The notes beneath the pieces were generated by a model. The model was given only the letters and a program-made list of their open reading frames with translations, made no database searches and had not been told where the DNA came from. From Phycisphaerae bacterium (lineage in GTDB: Bacteria; Planctomycetota; Phycisphaerae; UBA1845), in the NCBI GenBank assembly GCA_036477795.1, contig JAZGDL010000356.1:1-23359 (forward strand): a DNA stretch of 23,359 bases, given 5' to 3'. Made by a program: the position numbers and the translations under genes. Below, one piece after another: positions 336 through 17,925 of the stretch (positions are counted from its first letter, which is position 1; every line of letters starts with the position of its first letter).

Positions 336-435
336 AATCGTGTCCTCCATGACATTGCGCCACACTAGATATCGGCCAAGCCACAAACCCATCAATAGGT
401 TTTGTTAGAGTGCCTAAGCCGGTATCCTCGCAAAC

Positions 436-478
436 GTCCCCGGCAGGGCTCGAACCTGCAACCTCCGGCTCCGGAACA
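436..478 (-). repeat. Displaced copy of the tRNA-Arg 3' end (anticodon loop to discriminator), direct repeat of 2798-2840; att-like
   Basis: gtccccggcagggctcgaacctgcaacctCcggctccggaa at 436-476 matches 2798-2838 (gtccccggcagggctcgaacctgcaacctTcggctccggaa) with 1 mismatch. Upstream of the anticodon loop the sequence diverges (cactg vs gtcgg) and no D-arm or acceptor 5' strand is present, so it is not a functional tRNA. Confidence 0.75.
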
Positions 479-2920: not shown

Positions 2921-3040
2921 CTGACGATTGACGATTGGGGATTGACGATTGACGATTGCCCATTCCGGGGTCGCACATCTGCGCTTCCTCCGTCCCTTCG
3001 TCCCTTCCTCTCCCTTCGTGCCTCCGTGCCTTCGTTCGAC
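2921..3040. repeat. Composite intergenic repeat, copy A: heptamer tandem array (TGACGAT)2-TGGGGAT-(TGACGAT)2, a ~45-bp spacer (attccggggtcgcacatctgcgcttcc), then an octamer array (tccgtccc ttcgtccc ttcctctc ccttcgtg cctccgtg ccttcg)
   Basis: Read directly. Homologous to copy B at 4290-4412 in the same order and orientation (the spacers align: attccgGGgtcgcaCAtcTgcGcttccTCcgtcccttcg vs attccgCCgtcgcaGAgtTgcActtccGTcgtcccttcg). A short third copy of the octamer part lies at 17476-17500. Confidence 0.85.
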
Positions 3041-3131: not shown

Positions 3132-4295
3132 ATGACACCGTTGGAAGCCGACACTCCATCGTTTCGATTCAATCGGGCAGAGGCCGGTGGTGGGTTGGGA
3201 GACCTGGGCACGTTCGTTCCGCTGCTGGTGGGCATGGTGAGCCAGTGCGGCCTGCAGCTGGGGCCGGCCCTGTTCTGTGCAGGCCTGATGAACGTTACCA
3301 CCGGCCTGTTGTTCCGCATTCCCATGGCGGTTCAGCCGATGAAGGCCATCGCGGCGGTCGCCATCGCGGAGGGGCTGACGCAGTCGCAGATTCTGGCTGC
3401 CGGCATCCTCACCAGTGTGGTAGTACTGCTGGTGGCCGTCACCGGCCTGCTCGATCTGCTCTGCCGCGTTATCCCGCGCAGCGTCGTCCGCGGACTGCAG
3501 CTTGCCTTGGGTTTGAAGTTGCTGACGCGCGGCTTTGCCCTGATCGTGGGAACGGACGTCTGGATCGGTTGGGACAGCATCGGCCTGGGCGTGCTGTGCG
3601 CCGCGATGGTGCTGATGCTTTACTTCTCCACGCGGGTTCCCGGGGCCCTGGCGGTCTTTGCCGTGGGGTTGATTGCCCTGGTGGCCGGGGAGCCCTCGCT
3701 CCTGTCCGAAACCCGGCTGGGGATGACGTGGAACCTTCCGGACCTTGCCGATCTGGCGGATTGGCGCACGGGCCTGTTTCGTGGGGCGTTGCCGCAGATC
3801 CCGTTGACGCTGCTCAATTCGGTCATCGCAGTGTGCGCCCTGTCGTATGACCTCTTTCCTCGCCGGGCGGCGTCGCCGCGCAAGGTGGCGATCTCCGTAG
3901 CGTTGATGAACCTCCTGTGCTGTCCGTTGGGGGGGTTGCCGATGTGTCACGGCGCGGGGGGGCTGGCGGCGCAGTATCGCTTCGGGGCCCGGACGGGCGG
4001 CAGCGTGGTCATGCTGGGCGTCGCCAAGATGCTGCTGGCCCTATTGTTGGGCAGTTCCCTTCTGCTGTGGCTGGGCCATTATCCCGAATCGGGCCTCGGC
4101 GGCCTGCGGCTCTTCAGCGGGCTGGAACTGGCGATGATCTGCCGCGACCAGCGCACGCGGGTGGATTACTTCGTGATGCTGGTGACCGCGGGGGCGTGCA
4201 TGGCGGTGAACACCGCCGTCGGCTTTGTGGTGGGGTGGCTGATGGCTGCCCTGCTGCTGTGGGGCGTCTTTCGAATCGAGCCGGCAGGGGATTGA
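3132..4295 (+). CDS. MOT1-family transporter (molybdate transporter, sulfate-permease-like superfamily)
   Basis: 388 aa from ATG 3132 (GGAGA upstream). LGDLGTFVPLLVGMVSQCGLQLGPALFCAGLMNVTTGLLFRIPMAVQPMKAIAAVAIAEGLTQSQILAAGILTSVVVLLVAVTGLLDLLCRVIPRSVVRGLQLALGL closely follows the MOT1 signature (GDLGT[FY]IP..., TGLLF.IPMPVQPMK.IAAVA, IP..VVRG.QL..GL). About 10 predicted TM segments. The longer ORF start at 2949 would read through repeat A and is rejected. Stop TGA 4293-4295 lies inside the first heptamer of repeat B. Confidence 0.85.
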   Translation: MTPLEADTPSFRFNRAEAGGGLGDLGTFVPLLVGMVSQCGLQLGPALFCAGLMNVTTGLLFRIPMAVQPMKAIAAVAIAEGLTQSQILAAGILTSVVVLLVAVTGLLDLLCRVIPRSVVRGLQLALGLKLLTRGFALIVGTDVWIGWDSIGLGVLCAAMVLMLYFSTRVPGALAVFAVGLIALVAGEPSLLSETRLGMTWNLPDLADLADWRTGLFRGALPQIPLTLLNSVIAVCALSYDLFPRRAASPRKVAISVALMNLLCCPLGGLPMCHGAGGLAAQYRFGARTGGSVVMLGVAKMLLALLLGSSLLLWLGHYPESGLGGLRLFSGLELAMICRDQRTRVDYFVMLVTAGACMAVNTAVGFVVGWLMAALLLWGVFRIEPAGD

Positions 4296-4412
4296 CGATT
4301 GGTGATTGGTGATTGCGGATTGGGGATTGGGGACTGGGGATTCCGCCGTCGCAGAGTTGCACTTCCGTCGTCCCTTCGTGCCTTCGTGCCTCCGTGCCTT
4401 CTTCCCTTCGTG
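4290..4412. repeat. Composite intergenic repeat, copy B: GATTGNN heptamer array x8 (gattgac gattggt gattggt gattgcg gattggg gattggg gactggg gattcc), spacer, then ccttcgtg/cctccgtg octamer array
   Basis: Read directly. Same architecture and orientation as copy A. Sits between the convergent 3' ends of the MOT1-like gene (stop 4295) and galE (stop 4419). Confidence 0.85.
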
Positions 4413-4418
4413 TCTTCC

Positions 4419-12834: not shown

Positions 12835-12945
12835 TGGGTGGGTGGCCCACCTCGTTTCGAGGTGGGGGACACGATGATCCACACACCAACGTCGAAGCTT
12901 GTCGTATCATCCAGCCCCCACCTTCAAAGAAGGTGGGGCACCCGC
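12835..12945. repeat. ~110-bp MITE/REP-like structured repeat, copy D1 (three stem-loops)
   Basis: gggtgggtggCCCACCTCGtttCGAGGTGGGggacacgatgatccacacaccaacgtcgaagcttgtcgtatcatccagCCCCACCTTCaaaGAAGGTGGGGcaccc is ~93% identical to 17813-17925. Contains a 9-bp hairpin with ttt loop, a gatgat/atcatc inverted pair around an AAGCTT core, and a 10-bp hairpin with aaa loop. Lies in the divergent promoter region between the giant gene and the sigma factor gene. Confidence 0.85.
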
Positions 12946-13166
12946 AACGACGCAAGCGGCCATAAATGCCAGGGTCGTAAACCGCCTCGACTTGTTCCTC
13001 TCCATCGCTGGCTCGTTATCGGTCTGTCCTCCAGTGAACGATTGGCGTCCTACCGGCCTAGACCGGTTACGAGGCGCAGAACACATCCCCAGCCGCCCTT
13101 TGCAGCAAACACGGGCAGTTTCGGTTATACTCCTGGAGGTGTATGTAGCTTCCTAGCTCCATACGC

Positions 13167-13208
13167 ACCGTTTTGAGCTGGATCGGCTCAAGAAAACGGT
13201 ATTTTTTT
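13167..13208 (+). terminator. Rho-independent terminator-like hairpin plus T8 tract on the + strand, 20 nt upstream of the sigma factor start
   Basis: accgttttgagc (13167-13178) pairs with gctcaagaaaacggt (13186-13200): 12 bp with a 3-nt bulge, 7-nt loop, followed by atttttttc (13201-13209). No + strand gene ends upstream of it, so it is either an insulator/attenuator for the sigma gene or the end of an unannotated + strand transcript covering D1. Confidence 0.5.
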
Positions 13209-13227: not shown

Positions 13228-13803
13228 ATGGCTTCCGAAGAGGTCACTCAGGTCCTGGCCGATCTGACACGTGGTGATACGGGGTCCGCCGCGCGCCTGT
13301 TGCCCCTGGTGTATGAGGAGCTCAGGCGGCTGGCCGACCAGTACCTGCGCGACGAACGCCCTGATCACACGCTCCAGGGAACGGCCCTGGTTCACGAGGC
13401 CTTTCTCCGTCTTGTGGATCAGAAGGACGCCAAGTGGCAGAACCGGGCGCACTTCTACCGCGTGGCCGCCATGGCGATGCGGCGCATCCTGGTCAACCAC
13501 GCCCGCGATCGGCAGCGCATCAAACGTGGCGGAGGAAGACGCAAGTTCTCGCTCGACGACATAGACACGCAAGCCGAGGCGCAGTCGCCGGACCTTATCG
13601 CCCTGGATGAAGCACTGACCAAGCTCAGTTTGCTGGACCACCGCAAAGCGCAACTCGTTGAACTCCGCTACTTCGCCGGGTTTACGATCGAAGAATCGGC
13701 CCGGATCCTGGAGATCTCGCCGGCCCAACTGAAGCGCGAGTGGACGCTCGCCAAGACTTGGCTGCTGCGCGAACTTCGCCGTGGAGGTGAGTGTGAACGC
13801 TGA
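13228..13803 (+). CDS. ECF-type RNA polymerase sigma factor of the TIGR02999-like (kinase-associated) group
   Basis: MASEEVTQVLADLTRGDTGSAARLLPLVYEELRRLADQYLRDERPDHTLQGTALVHEAFLRL... with sigma70 region 2 and region 4 (LVELRYFAGFTIEESARILEISPAQLKREW) and the characteristic ..LAKTWLLRELRRG C-terminal tail. Alternative start ATG 13213; neither has a good SD. Confidence 0.85.
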   Translation: MASEEVTQVLADLTRGDTGSAARLLPLVYEELRRLADQYLRDERPDHTLQGTALVHEAFLRLVDQKDAKWQNRAHFYRVAAMAMRRILVNHARDRQRIKRGGGRRKFSLDDIDTQAEAQSPDLIALDEALTKLSLLDHRKAQLVELRYFAGFTIEESARILEISPAQLKREWTLAKTWLLRELRRGGECER

Positions 13804-16800: not shown

Positions 16801-17197
16801 CGACGACAATCAGATCAGGCTGTGGGACCCGGCCTCGGGCTCATGCGTCGGCACCCTGGCGGGACACGATCAGCATATTTTCGGTTTGGATTTTGCGCGC
16901 GGAGATCACATTCTCGCTTCAAGCAGTCGCGGCAATACGATCAAGCTTTGGGACATCGCCGAACATCGATGTCTGGTTACACTGGAAGGCCACAACGACA
17001 TGGTGTTCTCCGTCCAGTTCAGCCGGGATGGACGGGAGCTGGTGTCGGCCAGTCGGGACGGAATCGTCGGTCTCTGGGACCTGGGTTACTACGATCGTCA
17101 CATCGCTGGCAATCTGGCGTTTCAGCGGACCAGACTCTCAGGAGATCCTAATGGGAGAATCGTCAAAACCCGCAAGACTGGCCGCCGCTTGCCCTAA
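13793..17197 (+). CDS. Ser/Thr protein kinase with a conserved N-terminal extension, one TM helix and a C-terminal WD40 beta-propeller array
   Basis: GTG 13793 with GGAGGTG 6 nt upstream, overlapping the sigma gene stop (13801-13803) by 11 nt. The N-terminal ERWQRVGEVFDSA...AERAAFLADACGGDSDLRREVESLL is typical of kinases partnered with this sigma group. Kinase motifs GGMGTVY, VAIK, HRDLKPSNIL, DFGLAK, APE. TM segment LPLAISAAFVVLVSAFAVVMTI, then >10 WD-type repeats (..SGSDDGTIRLWD.. etc.). Confidence 0.9.
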   Translation: MNAERWQRVGEVFDSAVTRDAAERAAFLADACGGDSDLRREVESLLAHRADAEPFLETPPLSDVRRLLDQNGPGALVGERVGAYRIVEMIASGGMGTVYLAARADDQYRKQVAIKIVRTGDRTPELVERFRIERQTLAGLEHANIARLIDGGITEENRPYYVMEFVEGRPIDQYCEVAKDGGLSTRERLELFCTVCEAVGYAHQNLVIHRDLKPSNILVTNDGIPKLVDFGLAKTLGNTLGDADGPTVQGEFIGTVAYAAPEQVKGDVGSVDTRTDVYALGVVLFRLLTGRSPYPSGGSLSDVLHHILETAPNPPSTYYRHGDDELDAIVLKALSKEKERRYQSAAALKEDIHRYLAGDPVLAKGESSWNWYVVKKTARRHRLPLAISAAFVVLVSAFAVVMTIQAGRVANQRDIAEKALRSNKIERGRAMGLAGNMTHAERLIWREYLAGAGVTGSPTSGPIGAGLSLDEAHWALWELYAHHPCVLTTTDPYNSRISAVALSPDGTSLASSGSGGVITWFDFPSGRQRPGFTTTGLHSDEPGKIVTNDSFYPRISFSPDGRFIGVGTQERTVELWNVETGRRAVVLGASEASVEPTAYTSGERAVFQSIVFFPDGRTIATSSGENVIRIWDVASKTCTRVLEGHGNHVRRLAISPDGRTLLSASADGLVMLWDVSTGRRVGMLQGPGQFINCVRFSPDGRHFAAVGNDLTVFLWETTPPHGRRLLTGHTAWVRAVAFHPRAPLLATGSGDNTVILWDIPTGRVIRRLAGHAREVVALCFAPDGRYLVSADWDSIKVWDVNERRHFRKLVGVTGPVFSAVFYPGGRRVAFCRSDEDRSVRICDRFTGEILHILKGHTAPVSSVAVSPDGTVLASASYDHTVRLWDAVTGSCKKVLTGHQGGINAVCFRDDGRAIASGSDDGTIRLWEVPSGRHLATLEQHSQRIPSVRFSPVDQTLAASTGRDGEIVLWDTATRRIRRRWKAHDIGVRPVRFSHDGRILASGGDDNQIRLWDPASGSCVGTLAGHDQHIFGLDFARGDHILASSSRGNTIKLWDIAEHRCLVTLEGHNDMVFSVQFSRDGRELVSASRDGIVGLWDLGYYDRHIAGNLAFQRTRLSGDPNGRIVKTRKTGRRLP

Positions 17198-17199
17198 GC

Positions 17200-17466
17200 A
17201 ACGTTCCCGCGTCTCGCGCCAGGTTTCGATCTCCTTGAGGAACTCGGTGTCGACTTCGGCGGTGCCGCGTTTGCGTTTGTTGGATTCGGCGTATCTGTCG
17301 AAGGAGCCCTTGAGGATGGCGTCCTTGGCGAAGATACCGGCGATATCGTTCCATTGCTTAGGGTACTGGTGGTAGGTGAAGTAGAAGACGCGGGCGTTCG
17401 ACGGCCTGTCGGTGGTGTTCGGGCGGATGCGGCAGTCGTAGACGGCGAATTCCTCAACTGAGTGAA
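17200..17466 (-). pseudogene. Orphan C-terminal gene fragment without start codon (unknown family)
   Basis: Minus-strand frame reads ..VTLHSVEEFAVYDCRIRPNTTDRPSNARVFYFTYHQYPKQWNDIAGIFAKDAILKGSFDRYAESNKRKRGTAEVDTEFLKEIETWRETRER.. with lower GC and protein-like composition, but no ATG/GTG/TTG start before it runs into the repeat cluster at 17476; the ORF-track extension to 17848 is a translation of repeat DNA. Confidence 0.3.
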
Positions 17467-17475
17467 GAGTGACGG

Positions 17476-17697
17476 CTCTCCTCCGTGCCTTCGTGCCTTC
17501 TGACAGGTGGGTGGCCCACCTCGTTTCGAGGTGTATGTGTTTAGCGTACTGGGTGGCGCAGATTGATGAACCGAAAACGCCTGATCCGAGCCCCAAGCGC
17601 CAGCGCGGGGTGACTACGCGCACCCGTCGCTTGCGCTCGGGGCTCGGAATCGAGCACAAACACGCTAAACCCGTACGAGAAGGTGGGGCACCCCGGG
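17476..17697. repeat. Repeat cluster: octamer-array fragment (ctccgtgccttcgtgccttc, 17476-17500), the D-repeat 5' hairpin (17505-17533), a ~140-bp structured insert, and the D-repeat 3' end (gagaaggtggggcacccc, 17676-17695)
   Basis: Read directly. The insert has a gtttagcgt/acgctaaac inverted pair at its ends and a long imperfect hairpin ccgagccccaagcgc ... gcgctcggggctcgg (17586-17647). Confidence 0.75.
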
Positions 17698-17812
17698 AGC
17701 AGAAACCGCCAGAACGGCTGAGTGATCCAGAGCAGAACGACCAGCGCGAATACGATAAGCGTGACCGTTGCATCGCGACTCCACCGACCAAGAAATCGTC
17801 GCTGTTGGCGCA

Positions 17813-17925
17813 GGTGGGTGGCCCACCTCGTTTCGAGGTGGGGGACACGATGATCCACGCGCCAACATCGGAGCTTGTCGTATCATCCAGCCCCCACCTT
17901 CAGAGAAGGCGGGGCACCCCGCCCG
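17813..17925. repeat. ~110-bp MITE/REP-like structured repeat, copy D2
   Basis: ggtgggtggcccacctcgtttcgaggtgggggacacgatgatccacgcgccaacatcggagcttgtcgtatcatccagcccccaccttcagagaaggcggggcacccc; ~93% identical to D1, same three hairpins. Confidence 0.85.

What the first reader, a model, noticed from the sequence alone, without database searches (positions are those of the whole stretch)
12835..12945. Triple-hairpin ~110-bp repeat family (D) with full copies at 12835-12945 and 17813-17925 and split or partial copies at 17505-17533 and 17676-17695
The two full copies are ~93% identical and sit in regulatory intergenic regions (the divergent promoter of the giant gene and sigma factor; upstream of the hybrid histidine kinase). 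Conserved stem-loops (CCCACCTCG-ttt-CGAGGTGGG and CCCCACCTTC-aaa-GAAGGTGGGG) suggest either a non-autonomous MITE or a structured RNA element (sRNA or REP-like mRNA stabiliser). A + strand Rho-independent terminator at 13167-13208, ~220 nt downstream of D1 and just before the sigma gene, would be consistent with a short D1-containing transcript, or with attenuation of sigma factor expression.
Basis: seen in the sequence. Interest (0 to 1): 0.55.

Follow-up and report, generated by a model that had tools for sequence, protein, structure and literature searches.

The report
REPIN mobile repeats of a planctomycete
The ~105-bp repeat is a REPIN: two inverted REP hairpins that a RAYT tyrosine transposase encoded elsewhere copies around the chromosome. 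This is a known kind of bacterial repeat, seen here in Phycisphaerae, and nothing points to a small-RNA gene.

Summary
D1 (12837-12945) and D2 (17813-17921) are 94% identical. A third copy is broken into a left hairpin (17504-17533) and a right end (17677-17695) by an unrelated 143-nt palindrome.

Each full copy is an imperfect palindrome made of two inverted ~30-nt REP units around a variable ~44-nt spacer. Each unit has a GGGTGG/GGGTGC foot, a 9-10-bp GC-rich stem and a 3-nt loop. This is the architecture of a REPIN.

In related Phycisphaerae genomes, 193-aa Y1 (HUH) transposases are flanked by the same or cognate hairpins.
- They score above the NCBIfam cut-off for "REP-associated tyrosine transposase".
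- Their best solved relative is E. coli TnpA_REP.
- Their stems covary between lineages while the foot stays constant.

Copies have no target-site duplications. D1 is absent from orthologous sigma-factor loci. The public source contig differs from the window only by one extra REPIN beside D1.

The terminator-like hairpin upstream of the sigma gene is conserved in orthologues that lack D1, so it is independent of D1. No Rfam family matches.

Verdict: a REPIN/RAYT system, a new member of a known kind. The sRNA idea has no support. Interest is low to moderate.

The parts
12837..12945 (+). D1, a full REPIN (inverted REP doublet) in the divergent intergenic region between the 1624-aa gene and the ECF sigma gene
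   Evidence: 94% identical to D2. Folds as a long hairpin of -61.7 kcal/mol, z -5.7. Identical to the second of two tandem REPINs in the public contig L035.
12840..12869 (+). D1 left REP unit: foot GGGTGG (12840-12845), stem CCCACCTCG (12846-12854), loop TTT, stem CGAGGTGGG (12858-12866), tail GGA
   Evidence: Identical to the REP on the 3' side of the RAYT gene in L002. The same 21-mer occurs in 28 Planctomycetota loci from 13 genome assemblies. It fits the published REP rules of a GT[AG]G foot, 7-20 bp stem and 2-5 nt loop (PMC6006769).
12870..12913 (+). D1 spacer with a central GATGAT/ATCATC stem. The middle varies between species.
   Evidence: Alignment A6: the arms are nearly invariant, while columns 48-72 vary among 11 copies from 5 genomes.
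12914..12943 (-). D1 right REP unit, inverted. Read on the minus strand it is GGGTGC CCCACCTTC ttt GAAGGTGGG GGC.
   Evidence: 24 of 30 nt match the left unit when reverse-complemented. Listed as a hairpin unit.
17813..17921 (+). D2, a full REPIN about 250 nt upstream of the hybrid histidine kinase gene. Left REP 17816-17845, right REP 17890-17919.
17504..17533 (+). Left end of a broken third REPIN: foot plus an almost complete left hairpin, cut after CGAGGTG
   Evidence: 30 of 30 nt identical to 17811-17840 (family D10).
17534..17676 (+). Unrelated 143-nt palindromic element 'E' that replaces the interior of the third REPIN. Ends GTATGTGTTTAGCG / CGCTAAACCCGTAC; inner 28-nt inverted repeat 17585-17648.
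   Evidence: inverted repeat I5. Folds at -71 kcal/mol, z -5.9. The same end abuts a truncated REPIN in L012.
17677..17695 (+). Right end of the broken third REPIN: only the 3' half of the right hairpin plus the foot complement (GAGAAGGTGGGGCACCCCG)
   Evidence: 95% identical to 17903-17921 (family D16).

Best explanation
D1, D2 and the broken third copy are REPINs. A REPIN is a non-autonomous element built from two REP (repetitive extragenic palindrome) units in inverted orientation around a short spacer. These belong to a REP family of Phycisphaerae (Planctomycetota).

The likely mechanism rests on E. coli TnpA_REP and the IS200/IS605 enzymes. A RAYT, which is a Y1 HUH tyrosine transposase and in described systems is typically single-copy, is encoded elsewhere in the genome. 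It recognises each REP as a folded single-stranded DNA hairpin together with the unpaired guide sequence at its 5' foot (here GGGTGG/GGGTGC). It cleaves nearby through a covalent phosphotyrosine intermediate, and moves or copies the doublet without making target-site duplications.

The copies in this window are passengers in permissive intergenic DNA. Any effect on the neighbouring sigma-factor, giant-protein or histidine-kinase genes would be secondary.

Shown here:
- the architecture of the element;
- its identity with RAYT-flanking hairpins;
- covariation of the stems under a constant foot;
- absence of duplications;
- absence of D1 from orthologous loci;
- a one-copy difference between two versions of this very locus.

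Inferred, not shown: catalysis on single-stranded DNA, the cleavage sites, the RAYT of this particular genome, and any host function.
For: **1. Architecture.** Two inverted ~30-nt units, each with a foot, a 9-10-bp GC-rich stem and a 3-nt loop, are separated by a ~44-nt spacer. The whole folds as a long hairpin on both strands.

**2. A RAYT gene flanked by this REP.** In L002 a Y1_Tnp gene (Pfam E 5e-6, frameshifted) is bracketed by inverted REPs. The 3' one is identical to the D1 left arm.

**3. The transposase family.**
- Its 193-aa homologues come mostly from Phycisphaerae.
- They score 88-89 bits on NCBIfam NF047646, REP-associated tyrosine transposase, cut-off 80. They stay below the cut-off for IS200.
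- The HUH motif (HVH) is invariant in its first histidine and >=90% conserved in its second; the Tyr in DYCHKNP is invariant.
- The best solved relative is 4er8, E. coli TnpA_REP, at E 1.5e-10. IS200-type TnpA proteins reach only about 5e-3.

**4. Close homologues.** All 13 independent close-homologue loci examined carry GGGTG[GC]-CCC...GGG hairpins next to the gene.

**5. Distant homologues (74 loci, 29-39% identity).**
- 58 of 67 have the foot within 200 nt upstream.
- 61 of 69 have it inverted downstream.
- 96 hairpin units were found, against 0 in shuffles.

**6. Stem covariation across 22 distinct units.** 99% of cells are paired. 6 of 9 pairs change on both sides (40 cells). No shuffle in 500 reaches this, and slid controls give 31-52% pairing.

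**7. No flanking direct duplication** in 15 full copies.

**8. Conservation pattern.** The arms are conserved and the spacer varies across 5 genomes.

**9. Orthologous loci.** D1 is absent from sigma loci whose protein is 83-97% identical.

**10. One-copy difference.** The public source contig is 100% identical to the window apart from an extra 128 nt, which is one REPIN plus a 24-nt spacer beside D1.
Against: - The RAYT of the window's own genome was not found. The source is an unbinned metagenome contig, and the window encodes no transposase.
- The only RAYT seen with exactly this REP (L002) is frameshifted.
- Copy numbers that could be counted are low: 1-5 exact 21-mer matches per genome assembly. 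Classical REPIN systems have hundreds. A whole-genome count was not possible.
- The right arm carries GTGC, not GTGG or GTAG, at its foot.
- The units used for the covariation count were picked with a hairpin finder, which inflates the percentage paired. The positional test and the shuffles are the fairer controls.
- The 128-nt difference between the window and L035 could be an assembly collapse, or recombination between tandem copies, rather than transposition.
Confidence: 0.87

Rival explanations
1. A conventional MITE: an internally deleted derivative of a DDE-type insertion sequence, moved by cut-and-paste through its terminal inverted repeats.
For: The element is short and non-coding, has inverted ends of about 30 nt, and is multicopy and intergenic.
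Against: No target-site duplications in 15 copies. The termini are those that flank Y1/RAYT genes. No DDE transposase with these ends was seen. Each terminus is itself a hairpin whose stem covaries, which DDE-type inverted repeats do not require.
Confidence: 0.04
2. A structured RNA. D1 and D2 would encode a small RNA, or a cis-acting RNA element (stabiliser, attenuator or terminator), selected for regulating the adjacent sigma-factor, giant-protein and kinase genes.
For: Very stable folds, z about -5 to -6. Located in 5' regulatory regions. Hairpin stems covary, including three U-G-compatible cells. REPs in E. coli are known to affect mRNA decay and termination (literature cited in PMC6006769).
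Against: No Rfam family. The element is palindromic and folds equally on both strands. No T-run follows either hairpin. No sigma-70-like promoter was found around D1 or D2. D1 is missing from orthologous loci, while the real conserved leader elements lie downstream of it. The same unit flanks transposase genes and sits in unrelated contexts in 13 genome assemblies.
Confidence: 0.06
3. An integron-type recombination site (attC) that marks gene cassettes, suggested because related hairpins sit next to toxin-antitoxin modules in other loci.
For: It is an imperfect palindrome of about 100 nt. In L007 and L020 inverted units bracket MntA/HepT and PemK toxin-antitoxin genes.
Against: No RYYYAAC / GTTRRRY core sites at the ends. 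No cassette array and no integrase in the window. The units flank Y1 transposases, not IntI. In L024 the toxin-antitoxin module has a unit on one side only.
Confidence: 0.02

Closest known systems
REPIN-RAYT systems of Pseudomonas fluorescens SBW25 and other Gammaproteobacteria (Bertels and Rainey 2011, PMC3116915; PMC3337134)
   Same: Two REP hairpins in inverted orientation around a spacer form a long hairpin of about 100 nt. They are non-autonomous, intergenic, and cognate to REPs that flank a RAYT gene. The arms are better conserved than the spacer.
   Different: The host phylum is Planctomycetota (Phycisphaerae). The foot is GGGTGG/GGGTGC rather than GTAG. The copy numbers that could be counted are low (1-5 exact matches per assembled genome). 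The RAYT is 193 aa with its own conserved C-terminal tail.
E. coli REP/BIME and TnpA_REP (structure 4er8; Messing et al. 2012, PMC3479197)
   Same: It is the best solved relative of the associated transposase (E 1.5e-10). It shares the HUH and Y motifs, and a hairpin with an unpaired 5' guide tetranucleotide at the foot.
   Different: Only distantly related in sequence, with the match confined to two stretches. The guide is GTGG/GTGC rather than GTAG. No biochemistry exists for the planctomycete enzyme.
GTAG REPs with their RAYTs in Rhodopirellula baltica, and 'TIRtrons' with TIRYT transposases of Acidobacteria (Di Nocera et al. 2013, PMC3733652)
   Same: These already document RAYT-type transposases with flanking palindromic repeats in Planctomycetes and Acidobacteria. 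Some TIRtron repeats share a GGGGWSAS motif, and the D1 left arm contains GGGGACAC. Distant homologues here (29-39% identity) carry the same GGGTGC-CCC...GGG hairpins.
   Different: Phycisphaerae are not mentioned there. In the held library no paper pairs Phycisphaerae with REP sequences. Whether the D family equals one of their listed families could not be checked, because the figures are not held.
IS200/IS605 insertion sequences and their palindrome-associated derivatives
   Same: A Y1 HUH transposase, subterminal DNA hairpins with a guide tetranucleotide, and no target-site duplication.
   Different: The associated proteins score below the IS200 cut-off and above the RAYT cut-off. Most protein clusters are on one contig. 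The repeats are symmetric doublets rather than elements with distinct left and right ends.

Membership tests
REP / REPIN (RAYT-associated) | The unit is a short (about 20-65 nt) imperfect palindrome. Its basal stem is GC-rich, 7-20 bp and fully paired, with a loop of 2-5 nt (rules in PMC6006769). | tested here: met
   Left arm: 9-bp stem CCCACCTCG/CGAGGTGGG with loop TTT. Right arm: 10-bp stem with loop AAA.
REP / REPIN (RAYT-associated) | An unpaired guide tetranucleotide, GT[AG]G, lies 0-2 nt 5' of the hairpin foot. | tested here: inconclusive
   The left arms have GTGG directly at the foot (GG-GTGG-CCC). The right arms, and most distant relatives, have GTGC. The hexamer GGGTG[GC] is the conserved foot of the whole clade.
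REP / REPIN (RAYT-associated) | Two REPs lie in inverted orientation at a conserved spacing and form a long hairpin (the REPIN). | tested here: met
   Element length is 103 nt in 12 of the 13 D-type copies (100 nt in L022) across 5 genomes. The minimum-energy fold is a single long hairpin.
REP / REPIN (RAYT-associated) | A RAYT gene in the genome is flanked by the same REPs. | tested here: inconclusive
   Met in relatives. L002 has the identical REP, and 13 further close loci have cognate variants. The window's own genome could not be searched, because the source is a single metagenome contig.
REP / REPIN (RAYT-associated) | The associated protein is a RAYT: HUH and Y motifs, distinct from the IS200 transposase. 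| tested here: met
   NF047646 scores 88-89 bits against a cut-off of 80. IS200 scores 17-25 bits against 55. H61 and Y148 are invariant and H63 is >=90% conserved. The best PDB hit is 4er8, TnpA_REP.
REP / REPIN (RAYT-associated) | High copy number, over-represented in extragenic space. | tested here: inconclusive
   The window has 2 full copies and 1 broken copy in 23 kb, all intergenic. L028 has 3 in 8 kb. Each genome assembly has 1-5 exact 21-mer matches. A whole-genome count was not possible.
REP / REPIN (RAYT-associated) | No target-site duplication, as expected of Y1 transposition. | tested here: met
   The flanks of 15 full copies show no direct duplication.
REP / REPIN (RAYT-associated) | Binding and cleavage of the single-stranded REP by the RAYT; actual mobility. 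| not testable with these tools
   Indirect evidence only: a one-REPIN difference between the window and L035, and absence from orthologous loci.
DDE-type MITE | Target-site duplications, and inverted repeats that match a DDE insertion sequence. | tested here: not met
   No duplications. The termini match the flanks of Y1 transposase genes.
Described RNA families (Rfam 15) | A covariance-model match at or near the gathering score. | tested here: not met
   The only family above its gathering score is the tRNA at 2797-2870. Over D1 and D2 the best hits are animal miRNA and mascRNA models at 20-22 bits, against gathering scores of 42-97.
Integron attC | R''/R' core sites (RYYYAAC ... GTTRRRY), a cassette array and a nearby intI gene. 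| tested here: not met
   No core sites at the element ends. No integrase among the window's genes.

The most novel reading that the evidence does not exclude
In this Phycisphaerae RAYT clade the REP pair may not be limited to empty doublets. Inverted REP units also bracket toxin-antitoxin modules: PemK plus antitoxin in L020 (4919-5709), and MntA/HepT with further small genes in L007 (804-2590). The same geometry surrounds the RAYT gene itself. If the RAYT mobilises these in trans, they would be cargo-carrying REPIN-like transposons, which has not been described for RAYT systems.
Probability: 0.1. Interest if true: 0.55.

Novelty: new member of a known kind. Interest (0 to 1): 0.3.

Why it matters
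**Annotation.**
- These repeats should be masked as REPINs, not called as sRNA genes or ORFs. The public contig has a 211-aa gene call on the minus strand that runs through the broken copy and element E. It is probably spurious.
- The hairpin before the sigma gene should be studied as part of that gene's leader, independently of D1.

**Biology.**
- The finding extends REPIN-RAYT systems, which have mostly been studied in Gammaproteobacteria, to Phycisphaerae.
- The foot GGGTG[GC] followed by a CCC...GGG stem base is shared by a large RAYT clade: 6599 proteins at E <= 1e-10. It includes members only 29-39% identical from soil metagenomes.
- That gives a ready-made covariation data set for how RAYTs read their DNA hairpins.

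None of this overturns current understanding.

Tried and rejected
- **Rfam.** Searched at gathering thresholds over the whole window and at permissive E-values over both intergenic regions. Only the tRNA and noise-level animal miRNA models appeared.
- **Viral contigs.** The REP 21-mer gave no hit, so there is no sign of a phage origin.
- **Target-site duplications.** None in 15 copies.
- **Clean empty site for D1.**
  - Orthologous sigma loci were found (L036-L039). In the closest one (97% protein identity) homology with the window starts only at 13056.
  - Its upstream gene is a 42%-identical relative of the giant protein. It therefore shows absence of D1 but not a precise empty site.
- **Promoter and terminator scan.** It found no sigma-70-like promoter around D1 or D2. 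It did not flag 13167-13208, whose stem is bulged. Folding that stretch gives -17.9 kcal/mol, z -2.2.
- **Covariation within the D family.** Uninformative, because the arms are almost invariant: 2 of 35 pairs change on both sides. The informative comparison is between RAYT lineages.
- **Element E.** Its ends and core were searched in all fetched loci. Only L012 and a fragment in L004 turned up, so its nature is unresolved.
- **CGATGAT motif.** I considered that this conserved motif next to the hairpin was the RAYT start codon. I rejected this because homologues start 20-110 nt further downstream.
- **Citreicoccus hit (L029).** It shares only the 21-mer core, without the foot or tail. I treat it as chance.

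Full report
**Observation**

The two full copies are real. 12837-12943 and 17813-17919 align without gaps at 94% identity. The 25-nt left end occurs three times in the window, with none expected in 100 dinucleotide-preserving shuffles.

The third occurrence (17504-17533) is the left end of a broken copy, and its right end is at 17677-17695. Between the two fragments lies an unrelated 143-nt palindrome, here called E. It has its own inverted ends and folds at -71 kcal/mol, z -5.9.

All copies are intergenic in a chromosomal context typical of Planctomycetota:
- a 1624-aa cysteine-rich protein on the minus strand;
- a PF07638 ECF sigma factor, starting at 13228;
- a Ser/Thr kinase with WD40 repeats;
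- a hybrid histidine kinase.

**Anatomy**

The more informative description is that the right hairpin is the inverted copy of the left one:
- left arm: GGGTGG-CCCACCTCG-ttt-CGAGGTGGG-GGA;
- right arm, read on the other strand: GGGTGC-CCCACCTTC-ttt-GAAGGTGGG-GGC.

The element is therefore an inverted doublet of a ~30-nt hairpin unit around a ~44-nt spacer. As a free strand it prefers one long hairpin (-60.3 kcal/mol as RNA, -30.9 as DNA) over three local ones (-45.0 and -25.8). Both strands fold equally well.

**Relatives**

An exact-match scan of one genome per species, using 21 nt of the left hairpin, found 29 loci. Of these, 28 are in Planctomycetota/Phycisphaerae genome assemblies, 13 in all, with 1-5 matches each.

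Some of these are the same 103-nt doublet (L003, L009, L015, L026, L028 with three copies; L022 is a 100-nt version). Their arms are nearly invariant and the middle of the spacer varies. Others have the same left unit paired with a different right hairpin or a longer interior.

The one hit outside the phylum (Citreicoccus, L029) lacks the foot and tail and is probably chance. No viral contig carries the motif.

**The associated gene**

In L002 an inverted pair of units brackets a 0.6-kb gene that matches Pfam Y1_Tnp, though it is frameshifted there. The unit on its 3' side is identical to the D1 left arm.

A repaired version of this protein finds a large family of 193-aa proteins. The named members are from Phycisphaerae, and most protein clusters sit on a single contig. 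Four members were scored against NCBIfam; three reach 88-89 bits on NF047646, "REP-associated tyrosine transposase" (cut-off 80), the fourth scores 79.4, and all stay far below the IS200 cut-off.

In an alignment of 34 members, the first HUH histidine and the tyrosine of DYCHKNP are invariant and the second histidine is >=90% conserved. The best solved relative of the profile is E. coli TnpA_REP (4er8, E 1.5e-10). IS200-type TnpA proteins reach only about 5e-3.

**Association test**

I fetched the DNA around 13 independent close homologues:
- L030-L034, via three proteins;
- L040-L045, from the metagenome scan;
- L120-L123.

Every one has hairpins next to the gene of the form GGGTG[GC]-CCC(stem)-loop-(stem)GGG. 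Usually one lies upstream in direct orientation and one downstream inverted, which is the same geometry as in the doublet.

The 74 distant homologues from the same scan (29-39% identity) behave the same way:
- 58 of 67 have GGGTG[GC] within 200 nt upstream, and in 36 a hairpin follows at once;
- 61 of 69 have it inverted downstream, 43 with a hairpin;
- there are 96 units against 0 in shuffled sequence, with 25 distinct stems.

**Covariation**

I aligned 22 distinct units. The foot and the three basal C-G pairs are essentially constant, while the inner stem changes:
- 99% of cells are paired;
- 6 of 9 pairs change on both sides (40 cells);
- no shuffle in 500 reaches this, and sliding the partner drops pairing to 31-52%.

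The units were found with a hairpin finder, so the percentage paired is inflated. The shuffle result and the positional test are the fairer controls.

Within the D family itself the arms hardly vary, so nothing can be learned there. This covariation is what recognition of a folded DNA hairpin by a Y1 transposase predicts. It does not argue for an RNA.

**Mobility signals**

- Fifteen full copies have no flanking direct duplication.
- D1 is absent from the orthologous intergenic region of relatives whose sigma factor is 83-97% identical.
- The public contig that holds this locus (GCA_044345325.1, L035) is 100% identical to the window over the shared 20 kb, apart from an extra 128 nt directly left of D1.
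- That extra stretch is one more REPIN plus a 24-nt spacer. It may reflect gain or loss in the population, recombination between tandem copies, or an assembly collapse. I could not tell which.

**The terminator-like hairpin**

The stretch 13167-13208 folds modestly (-17.9 kcal/mol, z -2.2). Both it and a TAnAnT box at 13126-13131 are conserved in orthologous loci that lack D1.

It is therefore a feature of the sigma-gene leader, downstream of D1. A D1-containing transcript is not supported. An attenuator of the sigma gene remains possible but untested.

**Comparison with what is known**

Published rules define a REP as a hairpin with a 7-20-bp GC-rich basal stem, a 2-5-nt loop and a GT[AG]G guide 0-2 nt 5' of the foot. 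A REPIN is two such units in inverted orientation (PMC6006769; PMC3337134). The left arm fits these rules exactly, with GTGG at the foot. The right arm has GTGC.

REP and RAYT systems have been reported in Planctomycetes (Rhodopirellula baltica). RAYT-like "TIRYT" genes with palindromic flanking repeats have been reported in Acidobacteria, some sharing a GGGGWSAS motif; the D1 left arm contains GGGGACAC (PMC3733652). In the held library no paper pairs Phycisphaerae with REP sequences.

This is therefore a new member of a known kind.

**Mechanism and rivals**

The mechanism is inferred by homology to E. coli TnpA_REP (PMC3479197) and IS200/IS605 (PMC6006769). It involves single-strand hairpin recognition, foot-guided cleavage and a phosphotyrosine intermediate.

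The rivals each fail at least one tested feature:
- a DDE-type MITE: no target-site duplications, and the ends are those of a Y1 element;
- a structured RNA: no Rfam family, and D1 is absent from orthologous loci;
- an integron attC site: no core sites and no integrase.

**Limits**

- The RAYT of this genome was not seen.
- Whole-genome copy number could not be counted.
- Transcription could not be assessed.
- The origin of the broken copy and of element E is unresolved.

Noticed in passing
window 17534-17676; L012 553-566: A second 143-nt palindromic element, 'E', replaces the interior of the third REPIN. Its ends are GTATGTGTTTAGCG / CGCTAAACCCGTAC and it has an inner 28-nt inverted repeat at 17585-17648. 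The same end abuts a REPIN truncated in its right-hairpin loop in another planctomycete genome assembly. This hints at an element that targets REP hairpins.
   Followed up: partly
L035 9482-9612 (left of window 12837): The public source contig carries two tandem REPINs where the window has one. The sequences are otherwise 100% identical over the shared 20 kb. The 24-nt spacer (GCCTTCGTGCCCTTCTGATAAGT) resembles the left flank of the broken copy at 17481-17508.
   Followed up: partly
window 13126-13131 and 13167-13208: A TAnAnT -10-like box and a bulged hairpin followed by a run of seven T's lie just upstream of the ECF sigma start (13228). Both are conserved in four orthologous loci. This could be a leader attenuator of the sigma gene, unrelated to D1.
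   Followed up: partly
window 434-476 and 2793-2871: tRNA-Arg(CCG) lies on the minus strand. Its 3' 43 nt are duplicated 2.3 kb away at 98% identity. The two copies bracket a pentapeptide-repeat gene and a TIR-domain gene. This looks like a small island integrated at the tRNA, with no integrase inside.
   Followed up: no
window 2922-3035, 4287-4417, 17480-17500: Blocks of 7-mer (TGACGAT / GGGGATT) and 8-mer (CCTTCGTG) tandem repeats bracket the MOT1 molybdate transporter gene as an 82-nt direct repeat (76% identity). A third 8-mer array directly abuts the left end of the broken REPIN. The arrays were not found in any other fetched locus.
   Followed up: partly
L020 4919-5709; L007 804-2590; L024 1119-1900: Inverted REP units bracket toxin-antitoxin modules: PemK plus antitoxin in L020, and MntA/HepT plus further small genes in L007. 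In L024 a REP sits upstream of an MntA/HepT pair, with no partner downstream.
   Followed up: partly
L030 11858-15331; L023 3812; L002 5490-5540; L004 and L019: Other hairpin repeat families have quite different stems but carry the same GGGTG[GC] foot. Examples are CACTGCTC-tgt-GAGCAGTG, CATGCCGACC-ctcaa-GGTCGGCATG and CCCATCCTTTGC-ctactg-GCAAAGGGTGGG. This suggests several REP families per genome.
   Followed up: no
window 17138-17773 (minus strand): The public annotation calls a 211-aa gene with no Pfam hit. It runs through the broken REPIN and element E, so it is probably a spurious ORF created by the repeats.
   Followed up: no
L036 1-429 against window 12721 and downstream on the minus strand: In the closest relative the sigma factor is 97% identical, but the divergently transcribed giant-protein N-terminus is only 42% identical. 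Homology with the window begins at 13056. This points to a recombination breakpoint, or to a hypervariable surface-protein gene next to a conserved regulator.
   Followed up: partly
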